From positions 41,471 through 105,470 of the forward strand of contig DJRP01000028.1 in the NCBI GenBank assembly GCA_002437815.1: DNA of 64,000 nucleotides, read 5' to 3'. How positions within the stretch are numbered: the stretch's first letter is position 1; each line of letters begins with the position of its first letter. Positions 14,495-36,081 of this stretch are shown here, piece after piece. The stretch is from Collinsella sp. UBA6357. GTDB lineage: Bacteria > Actinomycetota > Coriobacteriia > Coriobacteriales > Coriobacteriaceae. The notes under the pieces are model-generated. The model was not told the origin of the DNA and did not search any database. It was given only the letters and a program-made list of their open reading frames with translations. The position numbers and the translations under genes were made by a program.

Positions 14495-14556
14495 CTCAGT
14501 CACATTACGGGAGCGGCACCTGTTGGTGCTGCCGGTCTTAGCAAGAGGTGTTTTGC

Positions 14557-14601
14557 ATGCGTCATATCGGCAACATTATTATTACCAGCATTATTAGCTA
14601 G
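14557..14601 (+). CDS. Leader peptide MRHIGNIIITSIIS (14 codons, 6 Ile)
   Basis: It is not in the ORF track because it is under 60 aa. An AGAGG RBS at 14544-48 lies 8 nt before the ATG. Five of the six Ile codons are ATT. The stop codon overlaps the first arm of the downstream alternative hairpins. Confidence 0.55.
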   Translation: MRHIGNIIITSIIS

Positions 14602-14684: not shown

Positions 14685-14748
14685 TTGCTCGCAATGTTTG
14701 TTATCGCGAATACCCCCTATCGATAAAATCATTGCGAAAGGAACAATC

Positions 14749-15558: not shown

Positions 15559-15583
15559 ATGACCTTTGGGTTCAAATGAGCGA

Positions 15584-15620
15584 GGCGCCCTCGGTGAAAA
15601 ACCGAGGGCGCCCCGCTTTA
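15584..15620. terminator. Bidirectional terminator between the hydratase gene and the convergent helicase gene
   Basis: A perfect 11-bp stem GGCGCCCTCGG (15584-94) / CCGAGGGCGCC (15602-12) has the loop TGAAAAA. Confidence 0.75.
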
Positions 15621-15636
15621 TTCGGTTTGGCAGCCG

Positions 15637-18369
15637 TTACAGGTCTTCGAGCAGGTCCTCGATAAAGCCCACACGGTAGTTCTTGAAGATGACCTCGCCG
15701 CCGTCCTGGGTGGCATCGAGGTCGACGTCGCCCATGATGCCAAAGTCGTGGTCGCCGTCCTCGTCGGCGAAGATCTGGTGCACGTGCCACACGTGATCGC
15801 TCTTCTCGTCCGATTCGTCGATCGTGAACATCGCCGTCGAGTGAGCATCGCCATCGGTGAGGATTTCCTCATGCTGCTCGTGGTAGGTGTCGAGCGCCTT
15901 TTGCCAGCGCACCTCGCCCATACCCCACTCACTGTCGAGCTCTCCCAGGTCGCGCACGTGTCCGCGCGCGGCAAGCGTCACACGGCGGAAGAGGGCGTTG
16001 CGCACGAGCAGCGTGCATCCGCGGCGGTCGGCCACGACCTCGTCGATGCCCTTGGGCGGAGCGGCGTCGAGCGCGGCGGGGTTGCCGGCGTTCTCCCACT
16101 CGTCGACCAGGCTCGAGTCAACGGAGCGCACCACGAAACCGAGCCAGCTGATGATGTCGTTCAGGCGCTCGTCGCGTTTCTCGATGGGCACGGTACGGTC
16201 GAGAGAACGGTAGGCCTCGGCCAGGTAGCGCAGGAGGATGCCCTCTGAGCGGGCGATGCCGAGCTTTTGGATATAGCCCTTGAAGTCGCTTGCGCTCTCG
16301 AGCATATCGCGCAGGACGCTCTTGGGGGAGAGGCGGTAATCGTTGGCCCAGGGGACCTCTTGGCAGTATCTGTAAAATGCGGCATCGAGCAGGTCCTCGA
16401 GGGGCTTCTCATACGTGACGTCTTGGATGCGCTCGAGACGCTCTTCGTATTCGATGCCGTCCGCCTTCATCTCGGCCATGGCGCGGTCGCGGGCGGCGCG
16501 TTCCTGGGCGCGGAGCACCTGCTTGGGATCCTCGAGCGTGGCCTCGACCATAGAGATGAGGTCCATGGTGTAGGTCTCGCTCTCGGGATCGAGGAGCTCC
16601 AGCGCCGCGAGTAAAAACGGCGAGAGCGGTTGGTCGAGCGCGAAGTCGTCGGGCAGGTCGACGGTGAGGGCATAGTCGATGTCGGGCTCGGTGTCCGCAG
16701 ATGCTCCCGGCGCCGGCGGGACCTCCGTGCGCACGACGACGCCGGAATCGATGAGCGTGGCGAAGACCTCGTCAGCGCGAAGCTCGAGCTTGGTCTTCTC
16801 CTCGGGGGTCTGCAGACTCGTCTCGATCAGGTCGTGCACGCGGGCGCGTGCGTCGCCGCCTTGCTCCACCACGCTGATCACCATGGAATGTGTGATGCGA
16901 AGACGCGGCTTGAGCGTCTCGGGCTGCGTCTCGATCAGGCGCTGATAAGTCTGCTTATTCCAGGTTACAAAGCCCTCGGGTGCCTTTTTCTTCTTGATCT
17001 TGCGGAGCTTCTTGGGGTCGTCGCCCGCTTTGGCCATGAGCTTGGCGTTCTCGATCTCGTGTTCCGGTGCCTCGGCGATGACCATGCCCTCGGTGTCAAA
17101 GCCCGAGCGCCCGGCGCGACCGGCGATCTGGTGGAACTCGCGGGCGCGCAGGCGGCGCATCTTGTATCCGTCGAACTTGGTGAGCGCCGTGAGCAGCACG
17201 GTATGGATGGGCACGTTGATGCCGACGCCGAGCGTGTCGGTGCCGCAGATCACGGGCAGAAGGCCCTGCTGCGCCAAGCGCTCGACGAGCAGGCGGTAGC
17301 GCGGCAGCATGCCGGCGTGGTGCACGCCCACGCCGCAGCCGAGCAGGCGCTTCAGGATCTTGCCGAAGGCGGTCGAGAAGCTCGTGCCGCGGGAAGCCTC
17401 TTTGATGGCCTCGCGCTGCTCCTTAGTCGCGATGCCGAAGTTCGCAAGCGACTGGGCCGTGGAAAGTGCGGCGTCCTGGCTGAAGTGCACGATGTAGAGC
17501 GGGGCCTCGCCGCGGCGCATGGCGAGCTCGACGGTTCCCTCGATGGAGGTCGTGACGTAGTCATAGCTGAGCGGTACGGGGCGCGGCGCGTCGACGACGA
17601 GATCGCAGGCGGCACCGGTGTGCTCCTCGAGCGAGGCCGCGATGGCGGTGACGTCGCCGAGGGTGGCGCTCATGAGCATGAACTGCGTATGGGGAAGCGT
17701 GAGCAGAGGAACCTGCCAGGCCCAACCGCGGTCGGGGTCGGCGAAGTAATGGAACTCGTCCATGGCCACGCAGCCTACATCGGCACCCTCTCCTTCGCGC
17801 AGGGCGTCGTTGGCAAGGATCTCGGCCGTGCAGCAGATCACGGGTGCCTTGGTGTTGATGTGCGTGTCGCCCGTGATCATGCCTACATTGTCGCGGCCGA
17901 GCACCTGGACAAGGTCGAAAAACTTCTCGCTCACGAGCGCCTTGATGGGCGCGGTGTAGTAGCAGCGTTTGCCTTGGGCCATGCCCATGAAGAGCATGCC
18001 GAGTGCGACGAGCGACTTGCCCGATCCCGTGGGGGTGCCCAGGATCACGTGATCGCCGGCTGCGAGGTCCATGAGGGCTTCTTCCTGGTGGTCCCAGAGT
18101 TCGATTCCGCGCTCGGCCGTCCATTCGTAGAAGCGCTCGAACGCCTCGTCGGGGGCGAGCCAAGGCTCGGGCTCGCTGCCGTCCTCGGGCTCCCACCAGG
18201 TGGGGGAGAGGCTCCCGAGCGAGCCGAACTCCGCCTCGGTACCGGTGCCGCCGGCAAAGGAGCTCGCCGCGCCGGCGCCGGTGACGGGTGCTGCGCTCAC
18301 GGCAGAGTTTTGGTCGGTATCGGTTTTGTTTGATGCCATATCGCTGCTTTCTATCGTTTCATCTGTCAT
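15637..18369 (-). CDS. DEAD/DEAH-box SF2 helicase with a long C-terminal DUF3516-like region (actinobacterial Ski2-like type)
   Basis: 910 aa. Motif I is GTPTGSGKS, motif II is MDEFHY, and SAT and QIAGRAGRSG are present. About 400 aa follow the helicase core. Confidence 0.8.
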   Translation of the reverse strand: MTDETIESSDMASNKTDTDQNSAVSAAPVTGAGAASSFAGGTGTEAEFGSLGSLSPTWWEPEDGSEPEPWLAPDEAFERFYEWTAERGIELWDHQEEALMDLAAGDHVILGTPTGSGKSLVALGMLFMGMAQGKRCYYTAPIKALVSEKFFDLVQVLGRDNVGMITGDTHINTKAPVICCTAEILANDALREGEGADVGCVAMDEFHYFADPDRGWAWQVPLLTLPHTQFMLMSATLGDVTAIAASLEEHTGAACDLVVDAPRPVPLSYDYVTTSIEGTVELAMRRGEAPLYIVHFSQDAALSTAQSLANFGIATKEQREAIKEASRGTSFSTAFGKILKRLLGCGVGVHHAGMLPRYRLLVERLAQQGLLPVICGTDTLGVGINVPIHTVLLTALTKFDGYKMRRLRAREFHQIAGRAGRSGFDTEGMVIAEAPEHEIENAKLMAKAGDDPKKLRKIKKKKAPEGFVTWNKQTYQRLIETQPETLKPRLRITHSMVISVVEQGGDARARVHDLIETSLQTPEEKTKLELRADEVFATLIDSGVVVRTEVPPAPGASADTEPDIDYALTVDLPDDFALDQPLSPFLLAALELLDPESETYTMDLISMVEATLEDPKQVLRAQERAARDRAMAEMKADGIEYEERLERIQDVTYEKPLEDLLDAAFYRYCQEVPWANDYRLSPKSVLRDMLESASDFKGYIQKLGIARSEGILLRYLAEAYRSLDRTVPIEKRDERLNDIISWLGFVVRSVDSSLVDEWENAGNPAALDAAPPKGIDEVVADRRGCTLLVRNALFRRVTLAARGHVRDLGELDSEWGMGEVRWQKALDTYHEQHEEILTDGDAHSTAMFTIDESDEKSDHVWHVHQIFADEDGDHDFGIMGDVDLDATQDGGEVIFKNYRVGFIEDLLEDL

Positions 18370-18460
18370 TCATTATGGCGGAGCTCGCGGATGCCGGGCC
18401 GTAATGTCCGAAAATGCCGAATATCGTCGTGTAGGACACCATTACCAACGCTTTGTTTTG

Positions 18461-18582
18461 CGTTATGTGTAGGTTAAATCGGCCAAGCCGACTATACAGG
18501 TATCTCGACAGCATTTTACCTGCGAAAACGTGAGCGAAAGCCATCCTATATCCGGCCTATTTCCTTAGACCTACACATAACG
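18461..18582. repeat. Long-hairpin element copy A (122 bp)
   Basis: Terminal inverted repeats are CGTTATGTGTAGGT (18461-74) and ACCTACACATAACG (18569-82). Inner arms are partly complementary (GCCGACTATA / TATATCCGGC). The conserved centre ACCTGCG lies at 18518-24, exactly mid-element. The element sits 5 nt downstream of the stop of the 18587-19750 gene. Confidence 0.8.
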
Positions 18583-18586
18583 AAGA

Positions 18587-19750
18587 CTATCGTCTCTTTT
18601 GGCGACCTCGATCGCATCTCCAGCGTTCTTGAGTGCCGATTGTTTCCCAGTCGACGAAGATATTTCGCCGTAAATCGAGCTCAGCTTCCTTTTCCGTCGG
18701 CGTCTTGTCGCGAAACTCCATGGATATCTTCTCGAAGATCAGGCGCCTGAGGACATCAAATTGTTGCTGGCTTGATATTTGTTGATACGTGATAAAGACA
18801 ATCTCATAACCCATGGTAGACAGAGCGGTTGCTCTGTCGGCATCCGAGTCTTTAACTCCGCCGACTCCGTGCGAGATGCGCCCTTGACACTCAAGCGCCA
18901 GGTCATGCTCACCGTCCTCGGATGTCAAGTAGATATCGATATAGGCGCGTTTGTTCTTGCATAGTTTTCGAGCGTCGGCACTTAACATGACTTCGTGGTT
19001 GTTTGAGATCGATAAACCCTCCCCACCGCTCGACCTTGGTAAGAACAGCAGCAAAGAGAGCTGTGCCTCGAAGGGGGATGCCGTTACTCCCGAAACCATG
19101 TGGAAGGCGCTTGCGAGACGTTTGTTCCCACGAATGCCTCTCGTCGATTCGATGAATTTGCCAAGCTCATGCAGCTCGACGAGCGGGGCTCGCGACCAGA
19201 GGTTGCTGGGGGTTCCGTCATCGCCGGCGATGCGTTTCCATCCATCGACTCCCTTGGCCAGCTCCTGGCGATACGGGGCAAGGAGCTCCTCTATCGTGTC
19301 GCTCGGGTTGAAGATGGCAAAGGAGCCGCACATCTCATATATCGCCAGCGCGAGGCGTTCCGTCGTAACCGTGCTCGCAAGAGAGAGGAGCGTCATTTCC
19401 GGCGAAGTGACCTTGAAGTCATGCTCGGTTTCGCGTATCGATCCAAAGGGTAGATCGGCGCTGCACACCCTGTGCTTGAAACACTTTGCGTTCGTACGAT
19501 GCTTTGCGTTGGGGACCAGGATGTTGAGGGGAAAGCCTATCGCGTCCGTCAGGGTGAGATTCGAAGTGAGATCGCTGTGGTGGACATTCGATTCATCAAT
19601 CGTGACCATCGGCAGCAGCGAGAGTACCGGGGGTGGAATCCGGTAGTAGTTGAAAGCCGATATGTTGCAAAGCGTAATGTCCATGATGGACATAGCGTAC
19701 CCGCCGAGCGAGCATTCCAAAACGCTGGGGAGGGAGTGACCGTTTGGCAT
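18587..19750 (-). CDS. Orphan protein with a C-terminal DUF559/Vsr-like (PD-(D/E)xK) endonuclease-type domain, in a low-GC patch
   Basis: The C-terminus reads RAYIDIYLTSEDGEHDLALECQGRISHG...DADRATALSTMGYEIVFITYQQI. This fits the DUF559 pattern (D..w....vE.DG..H....D..R...L...G..v.R.t). The upstream part resembles the N-terminal regions that accompany DUF559 in actinobacterial proteins (VTSPEMTLLSLAS, SPFEAQLSLLL). The start is uncertain (ATG 19750, 19693 or 19684) and no clear RBS is visible. Confidence 0.55.
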   Translation of the reverse strand: MPNGHSLPSVLECSLGGYAMSIMDITLCNISAFNYYRIPPPVLSLLPMVTIDESNVHHSDLTSNLTLTDAIGFPLNILVPNAKHRTNAKCFKHRVCSADLPFGSIRETEHDFKVTSPEMTLLSLASTVTTERLALAIYEMCGSFAIFNPSDTIEELLAPYRQELAKGVDGWKRIAGDDGTPSNLWSRAPLVELHELGKFIESTRGIRGNKRLASAFHMVSGVTASPFEAQLSLLLFLPRSSGGEGLSISNNHEVMLSADARKLCKNKRAYIDIYLTSEDGEHDLALECQGRISHGVGGVKDSDADRATALSTMGYEIVFITYQQISSQQQFDVLRRLIFEKISMEFRDKTPTEKEAELDLRRNIFVDWETIGTQERWRCDRGRQKRR

Positions 19751-22030: not shown

Positions 22031-22693
22031 ATGAACGTCGAGACGGCGCAACGACTTGCCGATCTTCGCCGCAGCAAGGGATATAGCCAAGAAGGGCTGG
22101 CACGCAAGCTCGGACTCTCACGTCAAGCGGTGAGCAAGTGGGAGCGGGCGGAGAGCTCTCCCGATACCGAGAACCTGATCGCGCTTGCCAAGCTCTATGG
22201 CGTGAGCCTGGACGAGCTTCTGAACCAGAGTGATGAGATCGAGGACGACATCGCGTTCGAGAACGAGGACCGGGCGCGTCAGCGCGAGGCGGAGGCGGCG
22301 GAGCGGGCCCGCACGCACGAGGCGGCGGCGCGGGCGACTGAGGCGGCGTCGCAGGCGAGCGATGCCGCGGCGAAGGCGGCCCAGGCGGCGAGTTGGAGCG
22401 CGCAGGCCGCGAATGCGGCGACGGCGACGGGCAACGCCAAACCTGAGAAGGGCCCGTTCCAGTCGTTCCCGTATTGGGCGGTCTGCTGGATTCTCTTCTT
22501 CGTGCTGTTCTTCGCGTTCGGTTTCGGTCCCTTCGCGGCGCTCATTTTCTTTACCATGCCCATCTACAAGTGGGTGGCGCGTTCGCTCGACGGTGACTGG
22601 GCGCGCGGCGATGCTCCCGCCGCGCCCGATTCCCCGGTGGCGGCTCCCGTCGTGCAGGGCGGTCAGGACGACGAGGGTGGTGAGAATCGATGA
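22031..22693 (+). CDS. XRE-family HTH protein with an Ala-rich linker and a C-terminal membrane segment
   Basis: The HTH reads LADLRRSKGYSQEGLARKLGLSRQAVSKWERAESSPDTENLIALAKLYGVSLDELL. The hydrophobic segment is FPYWAVCWILFFVLFFAFGFGPFAALIFFTMPIY. A GGAGGA RBS precedes ATG 22031. Confidence 0.8.
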   Translation: MNVETAQRLADLRRSKGYSQEGLARKLGLSRQAVSKWERAESSPDTENLIALAKLYGVSLDELLNQSDEIEDDIAFENEDRARQREAEAAERARTHEAAARATEAASQASDAAAKAAQAASWSAQAANAATATGNAKPEKGPFQSFPYWAVCWILFFVLFFAFGFGPFAALIFFTMPIYKWVARSLDGDWARGDAPAAPDSPVAAPVVQGGQDDEGGENR

Positions 22694-23568
22694 AGCTTTC
22701 GCACGAGTCGAAAATACGCTTGGGCGTGCTCGCTGCGTCGGCCGCGGCGCTTATCGTGGCAATGTGGGGACTGTCGTTCGCCCGGGGGCGCGCGGTCGAG
22801 AATTTCAATTTCCGCAACATCGCGAAATCCATCGGGGAGGATGTCGATAGTCCCGAGAGCCGCGGGTACGCTTCGATGTTCACGAAGTTGTCGAGCGCAT
22901 CGTTCGCCGCCGATACGGTGCAGGAGGTCGACTTCAATGTGTCCTCGGGCACCGTGAAGACCAAGATCGTCGATGGCGACGAGGTCACGGTGAGCGAGTC
23001 CGCCCATGTCAAGAAGGGCCTCAAGCCGGCGCGCGCGGCTACCAAGGGATTGGCGAGCGTTGAGAACGGCGTGCTCAAGATCTCGAAGTTCGACTACGAT
23101 GACGGGAGCGCGATCGGGCGCGTGGTGACAGTCGGTATCCCGCGCAAACTCGCAGGCAAGTTGAGCCGTATCAACCTGACCGTGGAGTCGGGGGATGTGA
23201 AGATCGATGGCCTGACGTGCAGCGAGCTCGATATGGTCGTGGAGTCCGGCGATGTCGAGTTCAACGGCAGCGTGACCAATAGCCTCGATATCCAACTCGA
23301 GTCGGGTGACGTGAAGGTGATCCTCGACCGTGCCCCCGCGACCGCGATGGACGTGACCGAGGGAAGCGGCGATGTCGAGATCTCCATTCCCGAGAAGACG
23401 GGGTTCACTGCCCAGCTCACGATCGAGAGCGGGGACTTCGAGAGCGATTTCCTCTCCAGCGAAATCGACGGGGATGACGTCTCGAACATGACGTTCGACA
23501 ACGGTGATAAATCGGCGACATATCGTTTCGATATCGATTCGGGGGATATGACGCTGGACTCCCATTAA
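22690..23568 (+). CDS. DUF4097-family beta-repeat protein (putative adhesin fold), membrane anchored
   Basis: It has an N-terminal TM segment and then repeated (V/I)ESGDV(K/E)(I/F) units. Its ATG overlaps the TGA of the XRE gene (ATGA). Confidence 0.75.
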   Translation: MKLSHESKIRLGVLAASAAALIVAMWGLSFARGRAVENFNFRNIAKSIGEDVDSPESRGYASMFTKLSSASFAADTVQEVDFNVSSGTVKTKIVDGDEVTVSESAHVKKGLKPARAATKGLASVENGVLKISKFDYDDGSAIGRVVTVGIPRKLAGKLSRINLTVESGDVKIDGLTCSELDMVVESGDVEFNGSVTNSLDIQLESGDVKVILDRAPATAMDVTEGSGDVEISIPEKTGFTAQLTIESGDFESDFLSSEIDGDDVSNMTFDNGDKSATYRFDIDSGDMTLDSH

Positions 23569-26483: not shown

Positions 26484-26519
26484 AATGGCGCAAACAGGGT
26501 CGGACTTGTTTGCGCCATT
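26484..26519. terminator. Bidirectional hairpin terminator between the convergent spermidine-synthase-like gene and the helicase gene
   Basis: A perfect 13-bp stem AATGGCGCAAACA (26484-96) / TGTTTGCGCCATT (26507-19). Confidence 0.7.
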
Positions 26520-26530: not shown

Positions 26531-28963
26531 CTAGATGCGCCCGTGGGTATAGTCGTCCCGCCAGCCGATCACGCGTCGCCGCATCCCCTCGATATCGAGC
26601 ACGCCCTCGGCAAAGCCCTTGCGTACGAGCTCCTCGGGAACGAACTCGTCATAACGGTCGAAATAGGGAACTTCTCCCGGGTAGACGAGCTCGATGGGGT
26701 CGAATTCTTTCTCCGCCTCATCGGCAAGGACTTCGTAGAACGTCTCCTCGTCCGCTCGCATCTTGAACTGCATAAAGTACGGACGCGATGGATCGAGACC
26801 CTTGAGGCCGAGCTCGCCGGCGCACTTTATTTTGAGCATACGCTCAAGTGCTAGGAAGGCATAGCTTCCGAGCCAGGGAAAGAGCGCCCAGGTGTCGCCG
26901 CCCAGATTGATGAGCGGCTTTTTTCCTGCACCCGAGAGCTCAGCGGTATGACGTGCCTGCATGAGTCGCGCGCGGGCGTTACTCATGAGATAGGGGTAGG
27001 CATCGTGCTCGTTGAGGACACGCCGCATGCGCTCGAGCACATGGGTGTTGATATCGCCCGGGCAATCGCCAAAGTAGGCGGGTACGCGACCTTTGACTTG
27101 CGTGGCAAAGACCGTATGACGTTTCCAATCGACCTCCTCGACGATCCAGCAGTGGCCGGCGATGGCGATGCGCTCGCCGGGTGGTGGCGGATTCACGATC
27201 GTGCCGAGCTCGGCCGATTCGCTCCGCACCGTGAACTCCTCGTTTTCTTGGAACACGGCGTAGAACTTATAGCTGTTCGTGAGACGCTCGCCCGCGAGTC
27301 CCACGATGAGCCCGCCGCCTTCCGTTACCTGGATATGGTCGATCTCGATGAGATGGCGCAGCAGGATCCGGTAGTCATCGGCCGAGATGCGATGGAAGTA
27401 GCTGAGCGTGAGTACGCGTTGGGCGAGCTCTGCGGGGGTGAGTTCGCCGCAGCTCGCGAGCGTAGTCATGGTCTGGTGATAAAGCAGGCTGTAGGGGAGC
27501 CGGTCGAGATCAGGCGGCTCGACCCATTTCTCCTCGCGGTAGAGCTGGACGAGTGCGATTCCCTGAAGGAGTTTCCAGGGGATGGTTTCGGGCATCATGG
27601 TGCGGGGCTCGGGCTCCTCCTCGCGCATGACAAACCACATCTCGGGCGGCAGGTCGCGTCGGCCCGTGCGGCCCATGCGTTGCAAAAAGGAGCTCACCGT
27701 GAACGGCGCATCGATCTGGAAGGCGCGTTCGAGGCGACCGATGTCGATGCCGAGCTCGAGCGTGGAGGTGGTGACCGTCGTCTGGGCCTGCTCCTCGTCG
27801 CGCATGAGATCTTCGGCGGTCTCGCGGATTGAGGCGGAGAGGTTGCCGTGGTGGATAAGGAACCGATCGGGTTCGTGACGGCTCTCGCAATAGCTTCTGA
27901 GCATGGAGCAGACAGCCTCGGCCTCCTCGCGTGAGTTGGCAAAGACGAGGCATTTGCGGCCGCGCGTGTGCTCGAAGACGTAGCCGATACCGGGATCGGC
28001 GTTGTCGGGCGCGGTATCGGTTGGGTTGAGCAGCGTCTGCTCGGTTGCGCGGGGAATATCGACCTCGCCTTCGGGGGCAGAGGACCAACGATGGGCGTTG
28101 TCGGAGGAAGAGGGTGCGCCGTGGGCGGTCTCGCGTTCGTCGTCCGGGGCCGGTGCCCGCCCCGGCAACGCTGCGGGGTGGGCACTCTCGATGCGCTCGC
28201 AGGCGATGACCTCGGCCTCCTGCGGGCCTGTTGCCTCGAACCCGCGCTGTCGTGCCTGGGGACCGGAGTTATAGAAGTGCTCCATCGAGATGCGCCATAC
28301 GCGACGCGGCTCCTCGAAACGGGGGATGATGCAACCGCGTCCCGTCCCCTGCGAAAGGAAGTCCCCCGTGCGTTCCGGGTCGCCGATGGTTGCCGAAAGA
28401 CCGATACGGCGGGGCCGGACACCGGCCATGCGGGCGAGCCGCTCGATAAGGCAGAGCGTCTGGCCACCACGGTCGCCGCGCATGAGCGAATGGACCTCGT
28501 CGATCACGACATAGCGTAGATCGCAGAACATGCGGGGGATCGCCATATGCTTGTGGAGCAGGAGCGCCTCGAGGGATTCGGGCGTTATCTGGAGGATGCC
28601 GCTCGGATGCTTGATGAGCTTGGCCTTGTGCGATTGCGAGACATCGCCGTGCCAGTGCCAAATGGGGATGTCGGCCTCGGCGCACAGGTCGTTCAGACGC
28701 ACAAACTGATCATTGATGAGCGCCTTGAGGGGACCGATATAGAGTGCGCCCACGCTTATGGGCGGGTTTTCCCAAAACTCGGTCAGGATGGGAAAGAACG
28801 CGGCCTCGGTCTTGCCTGAGGCCGTCGAAGCCGTGAGCAAGACGTTTTCCTGCGTGTTGAATATGGCGTCTGCGGCGGCGACCTGGATGGATCTGAGATG
28901 TTCCCAGTCGTGCGCGTAGATAAAATCCTGGATAAACGGGGCATACCGATGAAAGGCGTTCAT
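26531..28963 (-). CDS. sngC: Lhr-like DEAD/DEAH helicase, third gene of the TerB-ATPase-helicase operon (SngC-like)
   Basis: 810 aa. Motif I is TASTASGKTEAAF, motif II is VVIDEVHSL, and GLSATIG and RMGRTGRR are present. A ~90-aa low-complexity insert (PAPDDERETAHGAPSSSDNAH...) lies between the two RecA lobes. Confidence 0.7.
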   Translation of the reverse strand: MNAFHRYAPFIQDFIYAHDWEHLRSIQVAAADAIFNTQENVLLTASTASGKTEAAFFPILTEFWENPPISVGALYIGPLKALINDQFVRLNDLCAEADIPIWHWHGDVSQSHKAKLIKHPSGILQITPESLEALLLHKHMAIPRMFCDLRYVVIDEVHSLMRGDRGGQTLCLIERLARMAGVRPRRIGLSATIGDPERTGDFLSQGTGRGCIIPRFEEPRRVWRISMEHFYNSGPQARQRGFEATGPQEAEVIACERIESAHPAALPGRAPAPDDERETAHGAPSSSDNAHRWSSAPEGEVDIPRATEQTLLNPTDTAPDNADPGIGYVFEHTRGRKCLVFANSREEAEAVCSMLRSYCESRHEPDRFLIHHGNLSASIRETAEDLMRDEEQAQTTVTTSTLELGIDIGRLERAFQIDAPFTVSSFLQRMGRTGRRDLPPEMWFVMREEEPEPRTMMPETIPWKLLQGIALVQLYREEKWVEPPDLDRLPYSLLYHQTMTTLASCGELTPAELAQRVLTLSYFHRISADDYRILLRHLIEIDHIQVTEGGGLIVGLAGERLTNSYKFYAVFQENEEFTVRSESAELGTIVNPPPPGERIAIAGHCWIVEEVDWKRHTVFATQVKGRVPAYFGDCPGDINTHVLERMRRVLNEHDAYPYLMSNARARLMQARHTAELSGAGKKPLINLGGDTWALFPWLGSYAFLALERMLKIKCAGELGLKGLDPSRPYFMQFKMRADEETFYEVLADEAEKEFDPIELVYPGEVPYFDRYDEFVPEELVRKGFAEGVLDIEGMRRRVIGWRDDYTHGRI

Positions 28964-29005
28964 ACGTTTTTGCTCTCTGCCTCCTACGCGGCAAACCGGC
29001 TGGGG

Positions 29006-30313
29006 CTAGATGGTGAACTCGGCGAAGTTGCGCTGACCGGGATCGTTGGAAACGGCAGGGCTCGTGGACGAATCGGTTGAGCTGTCGCCCCCCACGCTCT
29101 TGAGCAGCCCGGCTACGTCTGCATCGGGGTTTTGACACAGGATGTCCAACAGCTCGATGAAGTCACGGATGACCTCGCGCGGCGTGAGATGCGTATCGGC
29201 GCCCACGCGGCCGAACTCGATCTTGAGAAAATCTACGAGGTCGCTCTCGGTAAGGGTGGGATTCCAGCCAAAATAGCCGGCGTGGATCTGCATGAGTTTC
29301 TCGATGAGGACGAGTAGCTCTTCGTAGGTGAGCGGTTGCAGACGGATGATGGGCGCGAGCATGTCCTTGAGGTCCTCTCGGGCGAAACGGCCCTGCGTGA
29401 GACGGCTGCGGAGCGCTTCATAGGAGAAAACGCCGCGCCGCCGGTCCTCGATCGAGGTGGGTGTGCCACCCATGATCAACCCCAAGTACTGAGCCTTACC
29501 CTGTAACGTGTCGTTGTACATCGTGAGGATCTTCTCGTAGTTGTACTGACGCGTGATGGCGTTGGGGATCTTGTAAAGGTTCACGAGTTCATCGATGAGC
29601 ACGATCAAGCCTTTGTAGCCGCTGCAGACCAAGAAGCGCGCGAGCAGCTTGATGTAGTCATACCAATCGTCATCGCCGATGACGGTCGAGCTGCCGAGCT
29701 CTGCGCGGGCCTCGCTCTTGGTGCGGTACTCGCCGCGGAGCCACTTGGTCACACGGCTCATGGTTTCCTCGTCCCCCTCCGTGACGGCGGTGCGGTAACG
29801 ACGGAGCATGCGTGAGAAGTCGAACCCGTGCACCATCTCCTCAAGGGGTGCGAGTTGGGTGTTGATGGCCGCGTCGTCGGCTTCGGAGACGCTTGCGACC
29901 CAACGGTCCAAGATCAGGTTAAGCGCGCCGCCCTCGGGACGTGTCTTGGTCGAGACGTTGCGAATGAGTTCGCGATACGTTGCAAGGCCTTGGCCCTGGC
30001 CGCCCTGGAGGCGCCGCTCAGGCGAAAGGTCGGCATCGGCCACGACAAAGCCCTCTCCCATGGCGTGAGTACGGATGGTCTGGAGCAGAAAACTCTTGCC
30101 GGCGCCGTAGCGGCCCACGAGAAAGCGGAAACTCGCACCGCCATTCGCGATCAGGTCAAGGTCGGTGAGCAGCGCGCGGATCTCGACCTCGCGTCCCACG
30201 GTGATATAGGGTAGACCGATGCGCGGGACCACGCCGCCCTTAAGCGAGTTGATGATCACGGCGGCGACGCGCTTGGGCACACGGGGCGCCGTGGTTGCAA
30301 AAGTGTCATTCAT
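29006..30313 (-). CDS. sngB: BrxD/DUF2791-like P-loop ATPase (SngB-like)
   Basis: 435 aa. The N-terminus INSLKGGVVPRIGLPYITVGREVEI plus Walker A VGRYGAGKSFLL and Walker B LIVLIDEL fit the DUF2791 pattern. Its start overlaps the upstream gene's stop by 8 nt. Confidence 0.7.
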   Translation of the reverse strand: MNDTFATTAPRVPKRVAAVIINSLKGGVVPRIGLPYITVGREVEIRALLTDLDLIANGGASFRFLVGRYGAGKSFLLQTIRTHAMGEGFVVADADLSPERRLQGGQGQGLATYRELIRNVSTKTRPEGGALNLILDRWVASVSEADDAAINTQLAPLEEMVHGFDFSRMLRRYRTAVTEGDEETMSRVTKWLRGEYRTKSEARAELGSSTVIGDDDWYDYIKLLARFLVCSGYKGLIVLIDELVNLYKIPNAITRQYNYEKILTMYNDTLQGKAQYLGLIMGGTPTSIEDRRRGVFSYEALRSRLTQGRFAREDLKDMLAPIIRLQPLTYEELLVLIEKLMQIHAGYFGWNPTLTESDLVDFLKIEFGRVGADTHLTPREVIRDFIELLDILCQNPDADVAGLLKSVGGDSSTDSSTSPAVSNDPGQRNFAEFTI

Positions 30314-31982
30314 GTTCGATATATCCTCTCACGTCGCACTCGTAGTCTTCGATGAGCTGAGGCCCATGCTCTCCGAATTCGATCACGGTATCTCCGATCA
30401 GATCGAAAAGGGTTTCGTTGATGGCATCAACTATCATGTCCTCGGAGACGCTTGCCTGTTCGAGTCTCGCTTGCGCCGCCTGGCGGTCATGCTCCAGCAG
30501 TGCGGAAAGATAAGCTCGCTGGATGGTCTCGAGATCGCCCGGCCCGGTGGCAGAAAGGGCGCTTGGGGCAGGTGTCGCTTTGGATTCGGTTTCTTGCGCG
30601 ACCTCGGGCACGGCATCTTCTGCGAGTTTGGGAACGCGGTCCACGCCGTCGTTCTCGCGTTCCTCGTCGACCAGGAGCGCCTCGCACGTTTCGGCAGCAG
30701 CGCTCCTGATGTGCCCGAGCTTGCTGAGGTCGATGTCGATCTCGACCGGTTTGTGCGCATCGCTCCAAGCCAACCAGCTGTTGATCTCATCGTCGATGAA
30801 CTTTGCCAGGTACTTGGGAACGCTCTCCTCCTTAAGCGGGTGGGCAGGGTCGAGTCTGAGCCTCAGACGTTGATCGCAAGCTCGCATGATCGCGCCGAGC
30901 TTGCCGTTTTTTTGGCGGCTGCCGTGGATACGGGTGCACTCCCAAAATCCGTTCTGGCACCGGTAGACATGAATGGGGTCGAGCTTATAGACGCAGTCCT
31001 CATGACGCTCGGGAGAGAAGAACACGGCGGAGCCGAACATCGTGTACGGCATGGATGTTTCCTCCCCAAACAGACTGGCGATGATGCCGCTTTTGCGATG
31101 CGTGTCATAGTAACGCGCCGTGCGGACATAGACCGCGCAGACGATGTGGCGCAGGTCGCGATGATGCTCTCGATTGAGCCGTGAACCCGAGAGGTTGTAG
31201 CTCGAAAGGGCGTCGATGGCGTCTAAGAGGCGCTCCTCGCGAACGTCGTCGGGCGGTAGGGGCAACGTCGGCGTACTGTCTTTGCGGCGCTTGGATTGGG
31301 GCGTATCGACAAGCTCGGGCGCCTTGGAGGGGACGGTATCCCGCGCGGCTCGGCGGAGCTCCACAAGGGCGCGATCGAAGGAAACGGTCTTGGAATTTTT
31401 GAGCAGTTTGGGATCAAGCCCGTGGTACACGACGTAGTCTTGCAGCCAAATGCGGGCAAAGCGATCGATGCCGGGCTCGTACGTACGGTATTTCTGCCAA
31501 AAATCCCGTATCTTGGCAAAACCGTCCATAGAGTCGTGGACGCCTATCCCGCACAGAAGTTCATACAGGTAGACAAAAGCGAAAGAGGTCGAGGTCTCCT
31601 CGATCACGCCGCTGCGCACGCGGGCGCGCCACGTGAAGTAGCCGCGCAGCTGCCGGTCGCTCATGGCGTTGTAGGTGGGAAAGTGCGATTTGAACGTTCC
31701 GTTATAGGGACAGTCGTCTTCGAAATCGGCCATCATCAGGCCCTGACGGTAGAAGAGCTCGGCCTCCGATAACCATCGGCCGGCACCGCCTTTGGGATCC
31801 TCTTGCCAGCGCGATATGGCGCGCATCTTGCGATAGCGGTCGGGCAGGAAATTGGTCATCTGTCGACCGGTTTTGATGATGGGTTCATCACGATAGACCT
31901 CATCGCTGAACTGCGAATGAGGGCGCTTGCGCGCCTCTTCCATGATGCGTGAGATCAGTTCTTTGACATCGCGGTCCGCCAT
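30306..31982 (-). CDS. sngA: TerB-N / TerB-C domain protein (SngA-like)
   Basis: The region YRKMRAI...AELFYRQGLMMADFEDDCPY...PTYNAMSDRQLRGYFTWRARVRSG...FAFVYLYELL is typical of TerB N-terminal domain proteins. The C-terminal acidic part is TerB-C-like. A GGGAGG RBS lies 4 nt before ATG 31982, whereas the track start at 32018 lies upstream of the candidate -10. Confidence 0.65.
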   Translation of the reverse strand: MADRDVKELISRIMEEARKRPHSQFSDEVYRDEPIIKTGRQMTNFLPDRYRKMRAISRWQEDPKGGAGRWLSEAELFYRQGLMMADFEDDCPYNGTFKSHFPTYNAMSDRQLRGYFTWRARVRSGVIEETSTSFAFVYLYELLCGIGVHDSMDGFAKIRDFWQKYRTYEPGIDRFARIWLQDYVVYHGLDPKLLKNSKTVSFDRALVELRRAARDTVPSKAPELVDTPQSKRRKDSTPTLPLPPDDVREERLLDAIDALSSYNLSGSRLNREHHRDLRHIVCAVYVRTARYYDTHRKSGIIASLFGEETSMPYTMFGSAVFFSPERHEDCVYKLDPIHVYRCQNGFWECTRIHGSRQKNGKLGAIMRACDQRLRLRLDPAHPLKEESVPKYLAKFIDDEINSWLAWSDAHKPVEIDIDLSKLGHIRSAAAETCEALLVDEERENDGVDRVPKLAEDAVPEVAQETESKATPAPSALSATGPGDLETIQRAYLSALLEHDRQAAQARLEQASVSEDMIVDAINETLFDLIGDTVIEFGEHGPQLIEDYECDVRGYIEHE

Positions 31983-32020
31983 CGCACCTCCCTTTAGGCT
32001 CATCGTGGTCGTGACCATTT

Positions 32021-32029
32021 ATCATAGCA
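32021..32029 (-). promoter_or_regulatory. Candidate extended -10 (TGcTATGAT) for the TerB-ATPase-helicase operon
   Basis: The minus strand reads TGCTATGAT (plus coordinates 32021-32029), about 35 nt upstream of ATG 31982. There is no convincing -35. Confidence 0.3.
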
Positions 32030-32891: not shown

Positions 32892-34304
32892 CTAAGAGAG
32901 TATGGGGGTGAAACCGAAGACAAGGGTCATGAGCCGCTGGGGCTCCTCGATAGCGGCCGCTATGGTTTGGGCGTCTCGGGCGCGGTCGAACCCGACGAGC
33001 TCGACGGTGCAGGCAACGTCTTCATATGCTAAGACGCGGCGGCGCTGGACCAGCTTGGTACCGTCGAACATCTCGGTCTTGGTCCCATCGCTAGAGGTTT
33101 CATAGAGATGGAGCAACGCTTTGGTAGCACTGTCGCTGACCGAGATTTCCTCGATATCGTCGCTGGCGCCCATGGCGCCGATGATGGTGTAGATCTCGGG
33201 CGCCACGACCTCGCCGGAAGGAAGGTATTCCAGCTGGAATGTCTTGGGTAGCGTGATCAGGGCGCCTTTTCTCTTTGGGCTGGTAGCCCGGACGCCCGTT
33301 GACGAGGGGTCGAGCGACTGTGTCTGATCGGTTGCCACAAATGCGACGAAGTTCTCAACACCCTTACTCGATGGGGATTGATCATCCTGGGCGGCAGCGG
33401 TCGTCTCCAAAGTCTTGCCGCCGTCGGAAACCATGATGGTTTCCTGAGCCGTTTTTGATACGGCAGCCGAAACGCTCGAGGACATCTCGGGTTCGGGAGG
33501 ATTGGCCCTGGCCCTTTCGTCGTCGCTGCCTTTGCTTTCGGTCGTCCGATCGGCGGAACCGATGTTATCGGTTGCATCGGGAACAAGCTCGATCGCCCCG
33601 CATCCGCTCCAGGTCAGTTGCGTAAGCACGGCGTCTGCGGCGATCGACGTCGATTCGCGTCGGGCGCCAACCGTACCTGCATAATTCTGCGCATCTTGTT
33701 GCAGCCCGCTCAGCAACGACGCAAGCCCCGATCGCTCCTTCGTATCGCCTGCATGGGCGATACGAAAGGGGATCGCGCCTCGGGCTGCGGCGGTCGTGCC
33801 GCTCTTATATGCTCGGATATAGGCCGTGAACGCTATATCCGAATCGTCGGTGTCGAGGCAACCGATCGCGATGCCGCCGCCGTTTTCATAGAACGTTGCG
33901 GGCGCGAGGACCACCGTCCCTCCGGCGGATGAATCGACCTCAAGATCTTCGACGGAAAGCTCGAGGTCGCAGACATCCCCGTCGGCATCGATGGCGACGG
34001 CGCTCCAGCGGCAGATGACGCTTCCCGTTTGCATGCCCTTGCTACGAGAGTGACGGTCGATATCCACGACTATCGATCCATCACTTGCGCGTTGCCGTAG
34101 GCAGCCCGCGGTCGTGACCTCTGCATTCTTGAACGTGAACGCCGCCGCATCGATACGGATGATTTCCTCCGAGACGAACGAGTCGTCAGAGGCGGTGGAC
34201 GCGGGCAAAGGTGCCGCCATGGCCGGGGCGGGGTGGACCGCGGGCGTGCCGAGAGCGAGCACGCAACATAGCGTCGCCGCCGCAACGTGAACCTTCGAAG
34301 CCAT
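32892..34304 (-). CDS. Secreted 470-aa protein of unknown function (last gene of the surface operon)
   Basis: The signal peptide is MASKVHVAAATLCCVLALGTPAVHPAPAMA. An AGGAG RBS precedes ATG 34304. I recognised no family. Confidence 0.6.
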   Translation of the reverse strand: MASKVHVAAATLCCVLALGTPAVHPAPAMAAPLPASTASDDSFVSEEIIRIDAAAFTFKNAEVTTAGCLRQRASDGSIVVDIDRHSRSKGMQTGSVICRWSAVAIDADGDVCDLELSVEDLEVDSSAGGTVVLAPATFYENGGGIAIGCLDTDDSDIAFTAYIRAYKSGTTAAARGAIPFRIAHAGDTKERSGLASLLSGLQQDAQNYAGTVGARRESTSIAADAVLTQLTWSGCGAIELVPDATDNIGSADRTTESKGSDDERARANPPEPEMSSSVSAAVSKTAQETIMVSDGGKTLETTAAAQDDQSPSSKGVENFVAFVATDQTQSLDPSSTGVRATSPKRKGALITLPKTFQLEYLPSGEVVAPEIYTIIGAMGASDDIEEISVSDSATKALLHLYETSSDGTKTEMFDGTKLVQRRRVLAYEDVACTVELVGFDRARDAQTIAAAIEEPQRLMTLVFGFTPILS

Positions 34305-34346
34305 GGCGTCTCCTTTCGTTCGCGCCCGTCGGGCGCACATGGCGGG

Positions 34347-34610
34347 TTAGTGCGTGCGTGTGAAATGTATTCCGAGTGCGAGTGCGCCCGTGCTTGCGAT
34401 GCACAGCGCGGCGGCGTCGCCAAGTTCCCTGTCGCCTGTTTGCGCAAGCGGTTCGCGGCGACGGTCGGTATCTTCGAGTCGCGAAAGGTCGACCGTCACC
34501 GTTGTCGTTCCCTGAGGGGGAGCCGGTTCTTGGGCGGTTGCCATCGCCGGTGTCGCGAGCAACGCGACGGATAGTGTGAGCGCAGTGAGGGCGCTAGCTC
34601 TGGTGCGCAC
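34347..34610 (-). CDS. 87-aa mini sortase substrate: signal peptide, ~37-aa mature part, LAQTG motif, TM helix, basic tail
   Basis: MRTRASALTALTLSVALLATPAMATAQE ... EPLAQTGD ... AAALCIASTGALALGIHF-TRTH. The GTG start overlaps the stop of the upstream gene by 17 nt. Confidence 0.6.
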   Translation of the reverse strand: MRTRASALTALTLSVALLATPAMATAQEPAPPQGTTTVTVDLSRLEDTDRRREPLAQTGDRELGDAAALCIASTGALALGIHFTRTH

Positions 34611-35193
34611 CGGGCTCGACCGTCCAGGTGATCTGTGCTACCTGGTCACCCTTGGCATCTACATGCAGGATATCGCGGGTCACGCGGGCAACGTTGCCGC
34701 TCGTGGACAGCTTGATCTTGTCCGAGCCTCCCTCGATGCCCTGATAGCCCATGTCAAAGTTGGCATTGTGCGAAAGGTCGATACCGGAGCCCTGAGTCGC
34801 CGCGTAGGCATCTTGAAGTGCCGCTGTCGGCCCCACCTTGAAATCGATGGAGTTCTTTGCCTTGCCGCTCTTGGCACTGGCCTCGATGGTCCAGATCTGG
34901 TTGCCCGTGATTTTCATGTTGGTCACGTGCAGCCCGTAGGCCGACAGATTCTCGATGACGGTGGCGTCGGCGGAGGGGCCGGTCAGCGTGCCATCGGCTG
35001 CGGCCACAAAGGGGATGATGGTCGGTACTTTGAAGGCTACATTATCGATATTGGTCTTGATGGTCACTTCGGTTGTTCCGGTTCGCTCCGCCGCGACCGC
35101 GGGCGTCGGTGCGCCTGCGGCGACGAGCGCGAGAGCGAGTCCCGCGCCGATGGCAAGTGCCTTGCCTGCATGTCGGTTGCGTTCGATGGTCAT
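34594..35193 (-). CDS. Secreted 199-aa beta-rich protein, WxL-like C-terminus
   Basis: The signal peptide is MTIERNRHAGKALAIGAGLALALVAAGAPTPAVAAE. NVAFKVPTIIPF and the C-terminal VAQITWTVEPG resemble WxL-domain surface proteins. This is a motif reading only. Confidence 0.55.
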   Translation of the reverse strand: MTIERNRHAGKALAIGAGLALALVAAGAPTPAVAAERTGTTEVTIKTNIDNVAFKVPTIIPFVAAADGTLTGPSADATVIENLSAYGLHVTNMKITGNQIWTIEASAKSGKAKNSIDFKVGPTAALQDAYAATQGSGIDLSHNANFDMGYQGIEGGSDKIKLSTSGNVARVTRDILHVDAKGDQVAQITWTVEPGAHQS

Positions 35194-35281
35194 GATCTTT
35201 CCTTTCTATCTGCGATGCCGGTTTATCGACACCGGGGGACCGGGATGAGAGGGGCATGTGCGTGATGAGGGTTTGCGGGAT

Positions 35282-35788
35282 CTATGCGTGCGCGACTTGC
35301 ACCTTGATGCGGGTGGGGTTGCCGTGCTCGTCAAAAGTCTTGCTGTCGAGCGCCTGGATCTCGATTGACGCCTCGCCTTCGGCAATGTCGCCGGCGGGGC
35401 AGGTCTCCACGGTCTTGCCCACCTCGACCACTCCGGACTCGTAGATCGTCTGCTCGTCTTGGATTACCCGAAAGCGCTGCGGAAACTTATTGCCGTCCAC
35501 GTTCCTGACGTTCACGCGCATCGTTCCGTCATCGTTGATCTGCACGACCGGTGCGACCGATATGGTCATCATGTTCTCGCGAACGGAGGCATCGAGCTCT
35601 TCTTGGATCTGCTTGCGCGTCTTGTCGTCGGCCGCGGTGACCGAGGTGCCGACCTCGGCCACGGGACGCGACTGCCAGGCGAACAGGCCGACGGCGGATA
35701 GCGCGCAAACGATAGCCAGTCCCAGCAGGACAAGACGCTTCTTGCGGCTGAGCCCCAGCGGTGCGCGGCGCTTGGCGTCATTGCTCAT
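35282..35788 (-). CDS. 168-aa N-terminally membrane-anchored extracytoplasmic protein
   Basis: RKKRLVLLGLAIVCALSAVGLFAW is the anchor, followed by a beta-rich domain. Its ATG overlaps the stop of the upstream 98-aa gene (ATGA). Confidence 0.6.
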   Translation of the reverse strand: MSNDAKRRAPLGLSRKKRLVLLGLAIVCALSAVGLFAWQSRPVAEVGTSVTAADDKTRKQIQEELDASVRENMMTISVAPVVQINDDGTMRVNVRNVDGNKFPQRFRVIQDEQTIYESGVVEVGKTVETCPAGDIAEGEASIEIQALDSKTFDEHGNPTRIKVQVAHA

Positions 35789-36081
35789 GCCGCGCCCTTT
35801 CCGGCGTAGACCTGTGCAAAGGTTGCCGGGTCGGCTCCAAAAAGCGTATGGAGCGCAATGCGGCGCGCGCTGATTTTTTCGTCGAAGTCTGCTCCCAAAT
35901 CGATCCCGTGGATATTGGCGATGTGATGGGCAAGAGCCGACATCGACTCGATATCAGATGCCTGGTCGCTGGTGATGTGATAGACCTCCGTGTCGGGAAA
36001 AGCCTCTTCGTCGAAGGGCATGCTGTAGATGTCGTCGTCGATTTGGATCGCGATGCCGAAGTTGGGCCAATAGAGTGCCAT
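35785..36081 (-). CDS. 98-aa cytoplasmic protein, first gene of the surface operon
   Basis: A GAGGAGG RBS precedes ATG 36081. MALYWPNFGIAIQIDDD faintly resembles the DUF559 core (D..WP....vE.DG). The track N-terminal extension is rejected. Confidence 0.5.
   Translation of the reverse strand: MALYWPNFGIAIQIDDDIYSMPFDEEAFPDTEVYHITSDQASDIESMSALAHHIANIHGIDLGADFDEKISARRIALHTLFGADPATFAQVYAGKGAA

What the first reader, a model, noticed from the sequence alone, without database searches (positions are those of the whole stretch)
26531..31982. TerB / BrxD-like ATPase / Lhr-like helicase operon: a Shango-type (SngABC) candidate anti-phage system in a Coriobacteriia-like genome
**Seen in the sequence**
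- Three co-directional minus-strand genes are tightly packed. Genes 1 and 2 overlap by 8 nt, and genes 2 and 3 are separated by 42 nt.
- The unit has its own candidate extended -10 at 32021-29 and a perfect 13-bp terminator at 26484-26519.
- Gene 1 (558 aa) has the TerB-N-type block ...PTYNAMSDRQLRGYFTWRARVRSG...FAFVYLYELL and an acidic TerB-C-like tail.
- Gene 2 (435 aa) is a DUF2791/BrxD-type P-loop protein (GRYGAGKSFLL, LIVLIDEL).
- Gene 3 (810 aa) is an Lhr-like DEVH helicase. It has an unusual ~90-aa low-complexity insert (about 27990-28270) between the RecA lobes.

**Established knowledge**
- The TerB + ATPase + helicase trio was predicted as a DNA-processing/defence module by Anantharaman, Iyer and Aravind.
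- It was later validated as the Shango system in E. coli and P. aeruginosa.

**Inference**
- This is a divergent Shango in a Gram-positive gut actinobacterium.
- It is embedded among housekeeping genes, with no integrase and no visible GC shift. As far as I know, that setting has not been experimentally explored.
Basis: partly seen in the sequence, partly recalled or inferred. Interest (0 to 1): 0.7.

Follow-up and report, generated by a model that had tools for sequence, protein, structure and literature searches.

The report
Shango anti-phage operon fixed in Collinsella
The three genes are a textbook copy of the known Shango anti-phage system (TerB-like protein, ATPase, helicase), but in the gut bacterium Collinsella it sits at one fixed chromosomal place in every relative examined, which is unusual for a defence system and has already been mentioned in print.

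Summary
The three minus-strand genes are sngA (30306-31982), sngB (29006-30313) and sngC (26531-28963).

**Family membership**
- They match the PADLOC Shango models at full length: SngA 1e-75, SngB 1e-169, SngC 4e-274.
- These scores are far above the next-best BREX models, BrxD and BrxHI.
- The Pfam domains are TerB_N plus TerB_C, BrxC_BrxD, and DEAD plus Helicase_C.
- The A-B-C order, the gene overlap, the catalytic motifs, the hairpin and the extended -10 element are all present.

**Organism and context**
- The organism is Collinsella or a close relative.
- No other defence gene, integrase or tRNA was found in the 64 kb.

- The trio is not a variable island. It lies between the same two genes in 77 of 77 Collinsella species loci that reach far enough.
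- It is also present in every same-species metagenome contig found.
- It is intact everywhere and under strong purifying selection (dN/dS 0.04-0.12).
- Its synonymous divergence is roughly that of its neighbours, higher only for sngA against the window.
- Elsewhere the same trio is mobile, on plasmids and IMG/VR contigs.

**Verdict**
- A 2025 preprint already notes Shango as a core-genome exception in gut Actinobacteriota.
- This is an ordinary new member of a known kind.
- Neither its defence role nor its mechanism has been tested.

The parts
30306..31982 (-). sngA: 558-aa TerB_N + conserved middle region + acidic linker + TerB_C protein
   Evidence: Pfam TerB_N 9e-29 and TerB_C 9e-17. PADLOC SngA 9.7e-76 over profile 53-525 of 528. 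The start at 31982 follows a GGGAGG Shine-Dalgarno sequence. The folded parts have dN/dS of about 0.04 and the linkers 0.20-0.23. The middle region (aa ~246-420) has no Pfam hit.
29006..30313 (-). sngB: 435-aa BrxD-family P-loop ATPase
   Evidence: Pfam BrxC_BrxD 3e-151. PADLOC SngB 1.1e-169 against BrxD 1.2e-42. NCBIfam BREX_BrxD scores 145 bits against a cut-off of 350, so that model is not met. The Walker A (GAGKS) and Walker B (VLIDE) blocks are 100% conserved across the Collinsella orthologues.
26531..28963 (-). sngC: 810-aa Lhr-core-type SF2 DEVH helicase
   Evidence: PADLOC SngC 3.8e-274 against BrxHI 7.8e-120. Pfam DEAD plus Helicase_C. A family profile matches Lhr-core 5V9X at 1e-68 through RecA1, RecA2, the winged helix and domain 4. 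Motifs I, II, III and VI are invariant in 81 sequences.
27989..28270 (-). Expanded low-complexity linker between the two RecA lobes of SngC (aa 232-325)
   Evidence: The segment aa 225-335 is 111 aa, against a family median of 36.5 aa and a maximum of 90 aa. It is present in all Collinsella orthologues but is the least conserved part, at 0.42-0.73 identity. Its composition is rich in A, P, E, S, G, R and D.
32021..32029 (-). Candidate extended -10 element TGCTATGAT upstream of sngA
   Evidence: Read directly. No -35 element is present, and the consensus scan did not call it. Read-through from the upstream DUF554 gene is not excluded.
26484..26519 (.). 13-bp perfect hairpin between the convergent sngC and spermidine-synthase-like genes
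   Evidence: Sequence. RNA fold -29.1 kcal/mol, z = -4.5. It has no U-tract, so its function as a terminator is inferred.

Best explanation
This is a canonical three-gene Shango system (sngA-sngB-sngC). An ancestor of Collinsella acquired it, and it has since been inherited vertically at one fixed chromosomal site, between a spermidine-synthase-like gene and a DUF554 membrane-protein gene. It has been kept intact by strong purifying selection.

**Shown here**
- Family membership of all three proteins.
- Gene order and intact catalytic motifs.
- Fixation, synteny and the selection regime.

**Inferred from homologues tested in P. aeruginosa and E. coli**
- It protects against phages.

**Proposed mechanism (inference only; the literature gives none)**
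- SngA, the TerB_N/TerB_C protein, is the sensor or scaffold. It may respond to a membrane- or infection-linked cue.
- SngB, the BrxD-family P-loop ATPase, is the ATP-driven switch or assembly factor.
- SngC, an Lhr-core-type SF2 translocase/helicase, is the effector that acts on phage DNA or on replication intermediates.
- No nuclease domain was found in any of the three proteins. Interference would therefore work by unwinding or remodelling, or by handing substrates to host nucleases.
For: **Membership**
- PADLOC SngA 1e-75, SngB 1e-169 and SngC 4e-274. Each is the top hit and covers nearly the whole model.
- Pfam TerB_N plus TerB_C, BrxC_BrxD, and DEAD plus Helicase_C.
- The SngC family profile matches Lhr-core 5V9X across four domains.
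- The same A-B-C colinear, tightly packed order occurs in 45 of 50 distant metagenome loci and 4 of 4 IMG/VR loci. It also occurs on a Clostridium estertheticum plasmid.
- The helicase and Walker motifs are invariant.

**Conservation in Collinsella**
- The trio is present in 77 of 77 Collinsella species loci that extend past the flank.
- The genes are full length in 70/70 (SngC), 64/64 (SngB) and 61/61 (SngA).
- Every same-species contig found also carries the trio.
- dN/dS is 0.04-0.05 for SngC, 0.04-0.07 for SngB and 0.11-0.12 for SngA. The flanking genes give 0.05-0.10. Within the C. aerofaciens group dS matches the flanks for all three genes. Against the window it matches for sngB and sngC but is higher for sngA (2.1 against 1.1-1.7).

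**Literature**
- Anti-phage activity of Shango was shown experimentally in PMC10250203 and 10.1101/2022.05.11.491447.
- Shango is noted as core in gut Actinobacteriota in 10.1101/2024.12.11.627901.
Against: - No experiment exists for this or any Gram-positive Shango in the papers found.
- The locus is not in a defence island, and no other defence gene lies within 64 kb.
- It shows no presence/absence polymorphism at all, which is atypical for defence systems.
- There is no sign of diversifying selection, even in SngA.
- The protection reported for tested Shango systems was modest, 10- to 100-fold.
- The mechanistic roles of the three proteins are conjecture. A 2025 preprint still calls the role of TerB proteins in defence unclear.
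- The AlphaFold model of SngA was unusable.
Confidence: 0.8

Rival explanations
1. The system is a domesticated housekeeping module. In Collinsella the TerB-ATPase-helicase trio would no longer serve mainly in phage defence, or never did. It would instead act as a core DNA-processing or stress-response complex. This is the kind of role originally proposed for TerB-associated helicase/ATPase operons, a proposal cited through.
For: - The locus is fixed, syntenic and intact in 77 of 77 species loci and in all same-species contigs.
- Purifying selection is as strong as on the neighbouring housekeeping genes, and dS is close to theirs.
- There is no diversifying selection in SngA.
- The neighbours are metabolic or housekeeping genes, with no mobile-element genes and no other defence system.
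- GC and GC3 match the rest of the genome.
Against: - No housekeeping role is known for any Shango homologue.
- Tested homologues give phage protection.
- Outside Collinsella the family is patchy and mobile. It is on plasmids (690 records with an SngB- or BrxD-like gene, 541 of them conjugative), beside a relaxase gene, and on IMG/VR contigs.
- Core status does not exclude immunity. RM and Cas systems are also often core.
Confidence: 0.15
2. The genes are a remnant or accessory pair of a BREX system (BrxD ATPase plus BrxHI helicase) that happens to lie next to a TerB protein.
For: The second-best PADLOC hits are BrxD (1e-42) and BrxHI (8e-120). The Pfam family is named BrxC_BrxD. SngC and BrxHI fall in one SF2 clade (PMC12278908).
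Against: - The Shango models outscore the BREX models by more than 400 bits for both proteins.
- NCBIfam BREX_BrxD scores 145 bits against a cut-off of 350.
- No PglX, PglZ or BrxA/B/C-like gene appears among the ORFs scanned across the 64 kb.
- The TerB partner is translationally coupled to the ATPase gene through an 8-nt overlap.
Confidence: 0.02
3. The helicase is an ordinary Lhr or ligase-associated DNA-repair helicase, and the neighbouring genes are unrelated to it.
For: The closest solved structures are Lhr-core 5V9X and 7LHL. The best NCBIfam hit is the ligase-associated DEXH helicase.
Against: - All Lhr-type NCBIfam models fall far below their cut-offs, for example 191 bits against 850.
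- No ligase or phosphoesterase gene lies nearby.
- The helicase gene co-occurs with sngA and sngB in 45 of 50 distant loci.
Confidence: 0.02

Closest known systems
Shango (SngA/SngB/SngC) of P. aeruginosa PA14 and E. coli (Johnson et al. 2023, PMC10250203; Millman et al. 2022, 10.1101/2022.05.11.491447)
   Same: It has the same three protein families in the same order: TerB-like protein, BrxD-type ATPase and DEAD/DEAH helicase. All three match the HMMs built from those systems at full length, and all ATPase and helicase motifs are intact.
   Different: - The host is a Gram-positive gut actinobacterium.
- In P. aeruginosa, Shango is one of many alternative occupants of a variable hotspot, cDHS1. 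Here it is the only occupant of a fixed site, present in every relative.
- The SngC inter-lobe linker is about 75 aa longer than the family median.
- It is untested experimentally.
BREX accessory genes BrxD and BrxHI
   Same: The ATPase belongs to the same Pfam family, BrxC_BrxD. The helicase falls in the same SF2 clade as BrxHI.
   Different: There is no PglX methyltransferase, PglZ phosphatase or BrxA/B/C gene. A TerB_N/TerB_C protein takes their place. The BREX-specific models score far lower, or below their cut-offs.
Lhr-core helicase (M. smegmatis, PDB 5V9X)
   Same: It has the four-domain core: RecA1, RecA2, winged helix and domain 4. The profile match is 1e-68 over about 530 profile positions.
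   Different: SngC has a separate C-terminal region of about 165 profile positions with no solved relative. It also has the expanded inter-lobe linker. It is encoded in an operon with SngA and SngB rather than in a DNA-repair context.
Other TerB-containing defence systems (Bunzi, Dionysus)
   Same: Each includes a TerB-type protein as a presumed sensor or membrane-surveillance component.
   Different: Their partners are membrane or pore-forming effectors, not an ATPase-helicase pair. SngA here shows no obvious transmembrane stretch on reading (no predictor was run).

Membership tests
Shango (SngABC) | SngA: a protein with TerB_N and TerB_C domains that matches the SngA model | tested here: met
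   Pfam TerB_N 9e-29 and TerB_C 9e-17. PADLOC SngA 9.7e-76 was the only PADLOC hit and covers profile 53-525 of 528.
Shango (SngABC) | SngB: a BrxD-family P-loop ATPase that matches SngB better than BrxD | tested here: met
   PADLOC SngB 563 bits against BrxD 145 bits. Walker A GAGKS and Walker B VLIDE are intact and invariant in the orthologues.
Shango (SngABC) | SngC: a DEAD/DEAH SF2 helicase that matches SngC better than BrxHI or other defence helicases | tested here: met
   PADLOC SngC 910 bits against BrxHI 399 bits. GKT, DEVH, SAT and QRxGRxGR motifs are present and invariant in an 81-sequence alignment.
Shango (SngABC) | The three genes are adjacent and co-directional | tested here: met
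   The sngA-sngB overlap is 8 nt and the sngB-sngC gap is 42 nt. The same A-B-C order occurs in 45 of 50 distant loci and on a plasmid.
Shango (SngABC) | Confers protection against phage infection | not testable with these tools
   Only homologues from P. aeruginosa and E. coli were tested. No data exist for Collinsella.
Shango (SngABC) | Typical but not defining: accessory distribution, in defence islands or on mobile elements | tested here: not met
   The locus is fixed in 77 of 77 species loci and in all same-species contigs. No defence or mobility genes lie in the 64 kb. The HRGM2 preprint notes the same exception.
BREX | PglX methyltransferase, PglZ phosphatase and BrxC present with BrxD/BrxHI | tested here: not met
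   None was found among the ORFs scanned over the window. NCBIfam BREX_BrxD scores 145 bits against a cut-off of 350.
Lhr / ligase-associated DEXH helicase | Score above the curated NCBIfam equivalog cut-off | tested here: not met
   TIGR04121 scores 191 bits against 850. PRK13767 scores 159 against 849. PRK09751 scores 80 against 1496. Only the core fold is shared.

The most novel reading that the evidence does not exclude
In Collinsella, Shango has been domesticated into an indispensable core function, either a constitutive genome-guarding system or a DNA-processing/stress complex. A system that is mobile and dispensable elsewhere would then have been frozen at one site across a very large radiation of gut species (771 Collinsella species in HRGM2). 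Its lineage-specific long SngC linker would be part of that adaptation.
Probability: 0.15. Interest if true: 0.6.

Novelty: new member of a known kind. Interest (0 to 1): 0.3.

Why it matters
- It gives a clean, well-bounded Gram-positive Shango operon of 5.5 kb, with its likely promoter and a hairpin, for anyone who wants to test the system outside Proteobacteria.
- It documents at locus level a point the literature states in one sentence: in gut Actinobacteriota, Shango behaves as a core, vertically inherited gene set rather than as an accessory island.
- That contrast within one family is a natural experiment. The trio is mobile on plasmids and in hotspots elsewhere but frozen in Collinsella. 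It could show why some immune systems become fixed, or whether Shango has a second, non-immune role.
- It does not reveal a new system or a new mechanism.

Tried and rejected
- **SngA structure.** AlphaFold2 on SngA with an alignment of 17 Collinsella sequences gave a mean pLDDT of 42, so the model was unusable and no fold search was run. The available homologue list was saturated by Collinsella orthologues at about 68% identity.
- **SngA middle region.** A Pfam scan of residues about 226-437 at E up to 10 found nothing.
- **Solved structures.** Sequence searches found none for SngA. For SngB they found only a spurious designed-repeat match.
- **Anantharaman, Iyer and Aravind 2012.** The paper could not be retrieved. 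It is cited only through the papers that cite it.
- **Partial BREX.** Considered and rejected on the scores and the missing PglX/PglZ genes.
- **Ordinary Lhr repair helicase.** Considered and rejected on the NCBIfam cut-offs.
- **Recent horizontal acquisition.** Considered and rejected. GC and GC3 match the genome. dS is close to that of the flanks, higher only for sngA against the window.
- **Arms-race evolution of SngA.** Considered and rejected. Its lower identity (66-68%) comes from disordered linkers, and the folded parts have dN/dS of about 0.04.
- **Consensus scans.** Both are visible in the sequence, but their function is unproven.


Full report
**1. The observation**

The region holds three co-directional minus-strand ORFs: 26531-28963 (810 aa), 29006-30313 (435 aa) and 30306-32018.
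- The third gene most likely starts at the ATG at 31982, giving 558 aa. That ATG is preceded by AAGGGAGGTG. The upstream ATG at 32018 lies only 3 nt after the candidate -10 element.
- Gene callers on public contigs also give 558 aa.

The expression signals are visible but unproven.
- TGCTATGAT lies at 32029-32021. There is no -35 element, and the consensus scan did not call a promoter there.
- The 13-bp perfect hairpin at 26484-26519 is real. It is much more stable than shuffled sequence, at -29.1 kcal/mol with z = -4.5.
- The hairpin lacks a U-tract and lies between convergent genes.

GC content is flat across the operon, and GC3 is like that of the neighbours.

**2. What the proteins are**

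| Gene | Pfam | Best PADLOC model | Next-best PADLOC model |
|---|---|---|---|
| sngA | TerB_N 9e-29, TerB_C 9e-17 | SngA 9.7e-76 (only hit) | none |
| sngB | BrxC_BrxD 3e-151 | SngB 1.1e-169 | BrxD 1e-42 |
| sngC | DEAD, Helicase_C | SngC 3.8e-274 | BrxHI 8e-120 |

- Each best PADLOC hit covers nearly the whole profile.
- The NCBIfam models for BrxD and for Lhr-type helicases all fall far below their curated cut-offs.
- An 81-sequence family profile of SngC matches the Lhr-core structure 5V9X at 1e-68, through both RecA lobes, the winged helix and domain 4. The last ~165 profile positions have no solved relative.
- The helicase motifs and the Walker motifs are invariant.
- No nuclease domain was found in any of the three proteins.
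- The middle region of SngA (about residues 246-420) is conserved but matches no Pfam family.

**3. The SngC insert**

- Residues 225-335 span 111 aa. The median is 36.5 aa and the maximum 90 aa among 104 full-length representatives of the family.
- The insert is low-complexity sequence, rich in A, P, E, S, G, R and D.
- It is present in every Collinsella orthologue but is the least conserved part of the protein.
- It is best read as an expanded, probably disordered inter-lobe linker, at the extreme of a length-variable region.

**4. Organism and context**

- The neighbouring ELP3-like radical-SAM gene is 85-86% identical at the protein level to 80 loci from GTDB species. Nearly all are labelled Collinsella or Coriobacteriaceae.
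- The 64-kb window otherwise encodes metabolic and housekeeping functions. These include PdxS/T, Fe-ADH, aldehyde dehydrogenase, a PTS system, PurL, homoserine dehydrogenase, a Liv-type ABC transporter, ETF/FAD-oxidase and others.
- No integrase or transposase was seen. There is no tRNA gene and no Rfam hit.
- No neighbouring protein gave more than a generic domain-level PADLOC hit.
- No PglX or PglZ gene is present, so this is not BREX.

**5. The main added result: the locus is fixed**

- In every one of the 77 Collinsella species loci whose contig reaches beyond the spermidine-synthase-like gene, sngC is present at the same place.
- Where the contig continues, sngB, sngA and the DUF554 gene follow.
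- All copies not cut by a contig end are single full-length matches without frameshifts: 70 of 70 for sngC, 64 of 64 for sngB and 61 of 61 for sngA.
- Within the window's own species, every metagenome contig that carries the exact flanking proteins also carries the trio.

Nei-Gojobori estimates:

| Gene | dN/dS | dS within the C. aerofaciens group | dS against the window |
|---|---|---|---|
| sngC | 0.04-0.05 | 0.37 | 1.2 |
| sngB | 0.04-0.07 | 0.30 | 1.0 |
| sngA | 0.11-0.12 | 0.38 | 2.1 |
| Flanking genes (ELP3-like, spermidine-synthase-like, DUF554) | 0.05-0.10 | 0.31-0.44 | 1.1-1.7 |

- Within the group, synonymous divergence of the three genes falls in the range of the flanking genes. Against the window this also holds for sngB and sngC; sngA is higher.
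- This indicates vertical co-inheritance rather than recent transfer.
- The lower identity of SngA (66-68%) is confined to disordered linkers. Its TerB_N and middle regions have dN/dS of about 0.04.
- Synteny with the ELP3-like and spermidine-synthase-like genes extends to a more distant relative, L102, whose ELP3-like gene is 67% identical. In that locus an unrelated gene has been inserted between sngB and sngC.

**6. Elsewhere the family is mobile and patchy**

- The next-closest SngC clusters come from a Lachnospiraceae MAG (67% identity), then a cyanobacterium and Christensenellaceae (45-50%).
- Loci whose SngC is 59-69% identical lack the Collinsella flanking genes.
- The colinear A-B-C trio recurs in 45 of 50 diverse metagenome loci and in 4 of 4 IMG/VR contigs.
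- SngB-like genes, some of which may be BrxD, occur on 690 plasmid records, 541 of them conjugative.
- One complete trio lies beside a relaxase gene on a Clostridium estertheticum plasmid.
- None occurs in the GenBank phage records.

**7. Literature**

- Shango was validated as an anti-phage system in P. aeruginosa. PA14 genes expressed in PAO1 gave 10- to 100-fold effects and strong protection in liquid culture (PMC10250203).
- It was also validated in E. coli (10.1101/2022.05.11.491447). Both papers credit the earlier TerB prediction by Anantharaman et al. 2012.
- SngC groups with BrxHI, DruE and DpdJ in a distinct SF2 clade (PMC12278908).
- How TerB proteins act in defence was still called unclear in 2025 (10.1101/2025.09.30.679545).
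- The HRGM2 gut catalogue ran DefenseFinder on 155,211 genomes. [quoted passage not shown] That catalogue contains 771 Collinsella species, so its exception very probably reflects this locus.

**8. Interpretation**

- Membership in Shango is established by every sequence-level criterion.
- The defence function and the mechanism are inferred.
- My working model is that SngA is the sensor or scaffold, SngB the ATP-dependent switch, and SngC an Lhr-type translocase acting on phage DNA or replication intermediates. With no nuclease of its own, the system would interfere by unwinding or remodelling, or through host nucleases.
- The main rival is that the system has taken on a housekeeping DNA-processing or stress role in Collinsella. 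The absolute fixation, the strong constraint and the non-island context support this rival. Nothing positive demonstrates it. I give it about 0.15.

**9. Verdict**

- This is a new member of a known kind that standard tools already detect. Its one unusual property, core status, is already mentioned in the literature.
- Interest is low to moderate.

Noticed in passing
window 61052-64000 (+), runs off the window end: A single long ORF combines the RecJ domains (DHH, DHHA1, RecJ_OB) with a DEAD/Helicase_C SF2 helicase module. This would be a RecJ-helicase fusion.
   Followed up: no
window 32892-36081 (-): Four consecutive genes of 470, 199, 168 and 98 aa lie directly upstream of the DUF554 gene and have no Pfam hit on record (PADLOC scanned only for the first two). 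The 470-aa protein is only 36-39% identical to its counterparts in the C. aerofaciens group, while the neighbouring genes are 84-88% identical. This may be a fast-evolving cluster of surface proteins.
   Followed up: partly
window 12593-19750: This stretch holds a DUF2130 protein (617 aa) and a 910-aa DEAD plus DUF3516 helicase. It also holds a 387-aa protein with a weak, sub-threshold REase_MTES_1575 hit. PADLOC gave only generic helicase-core matches.
   Followed up: partly
window 4630-5520 (-): A lone DUF5131 gene (phage Gp37/Gp68 family, 1e-36) sits among metabolic genes, with no other phage-like gene nearby.
   Followed up: no
L007 12942-14141 (also L060, L082): In three Collinsella species a gene for a 399-aa MFS-like membrane transporter is inserted between the spermidine-synthase-like gene and sngC. 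The Shango genes remain intact.
   Followed up: partly
L102 4216-5850: In a more distant relative (SngC 78% identical, ELP3-like 67%), an oppositely oriented 544-aa Fe-S/hydrogenase-like gene splits sngB from sngC. Both genes stay full length.
   Followed up: partly
L179, L180, L182, L183 (IMG/VR) and L193 (plasmid NZ_CP086238.1): Complete colinear Shango trios occur on contigs classified as viral. One also occurs on a Clostridium estertheticum plasmid next to a relaxase gene. None occurs in 50,697 GenBank phage records.
   Followed up: partly
window 22031-23568 (+): An Xre-type HTH protein (220 aa) overlaps a DUF4097 protein (292 aa). The HTH part is 94% conserved across Collinsella, but the DUF4097 part is only about 30% identical.
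   Followed up: no
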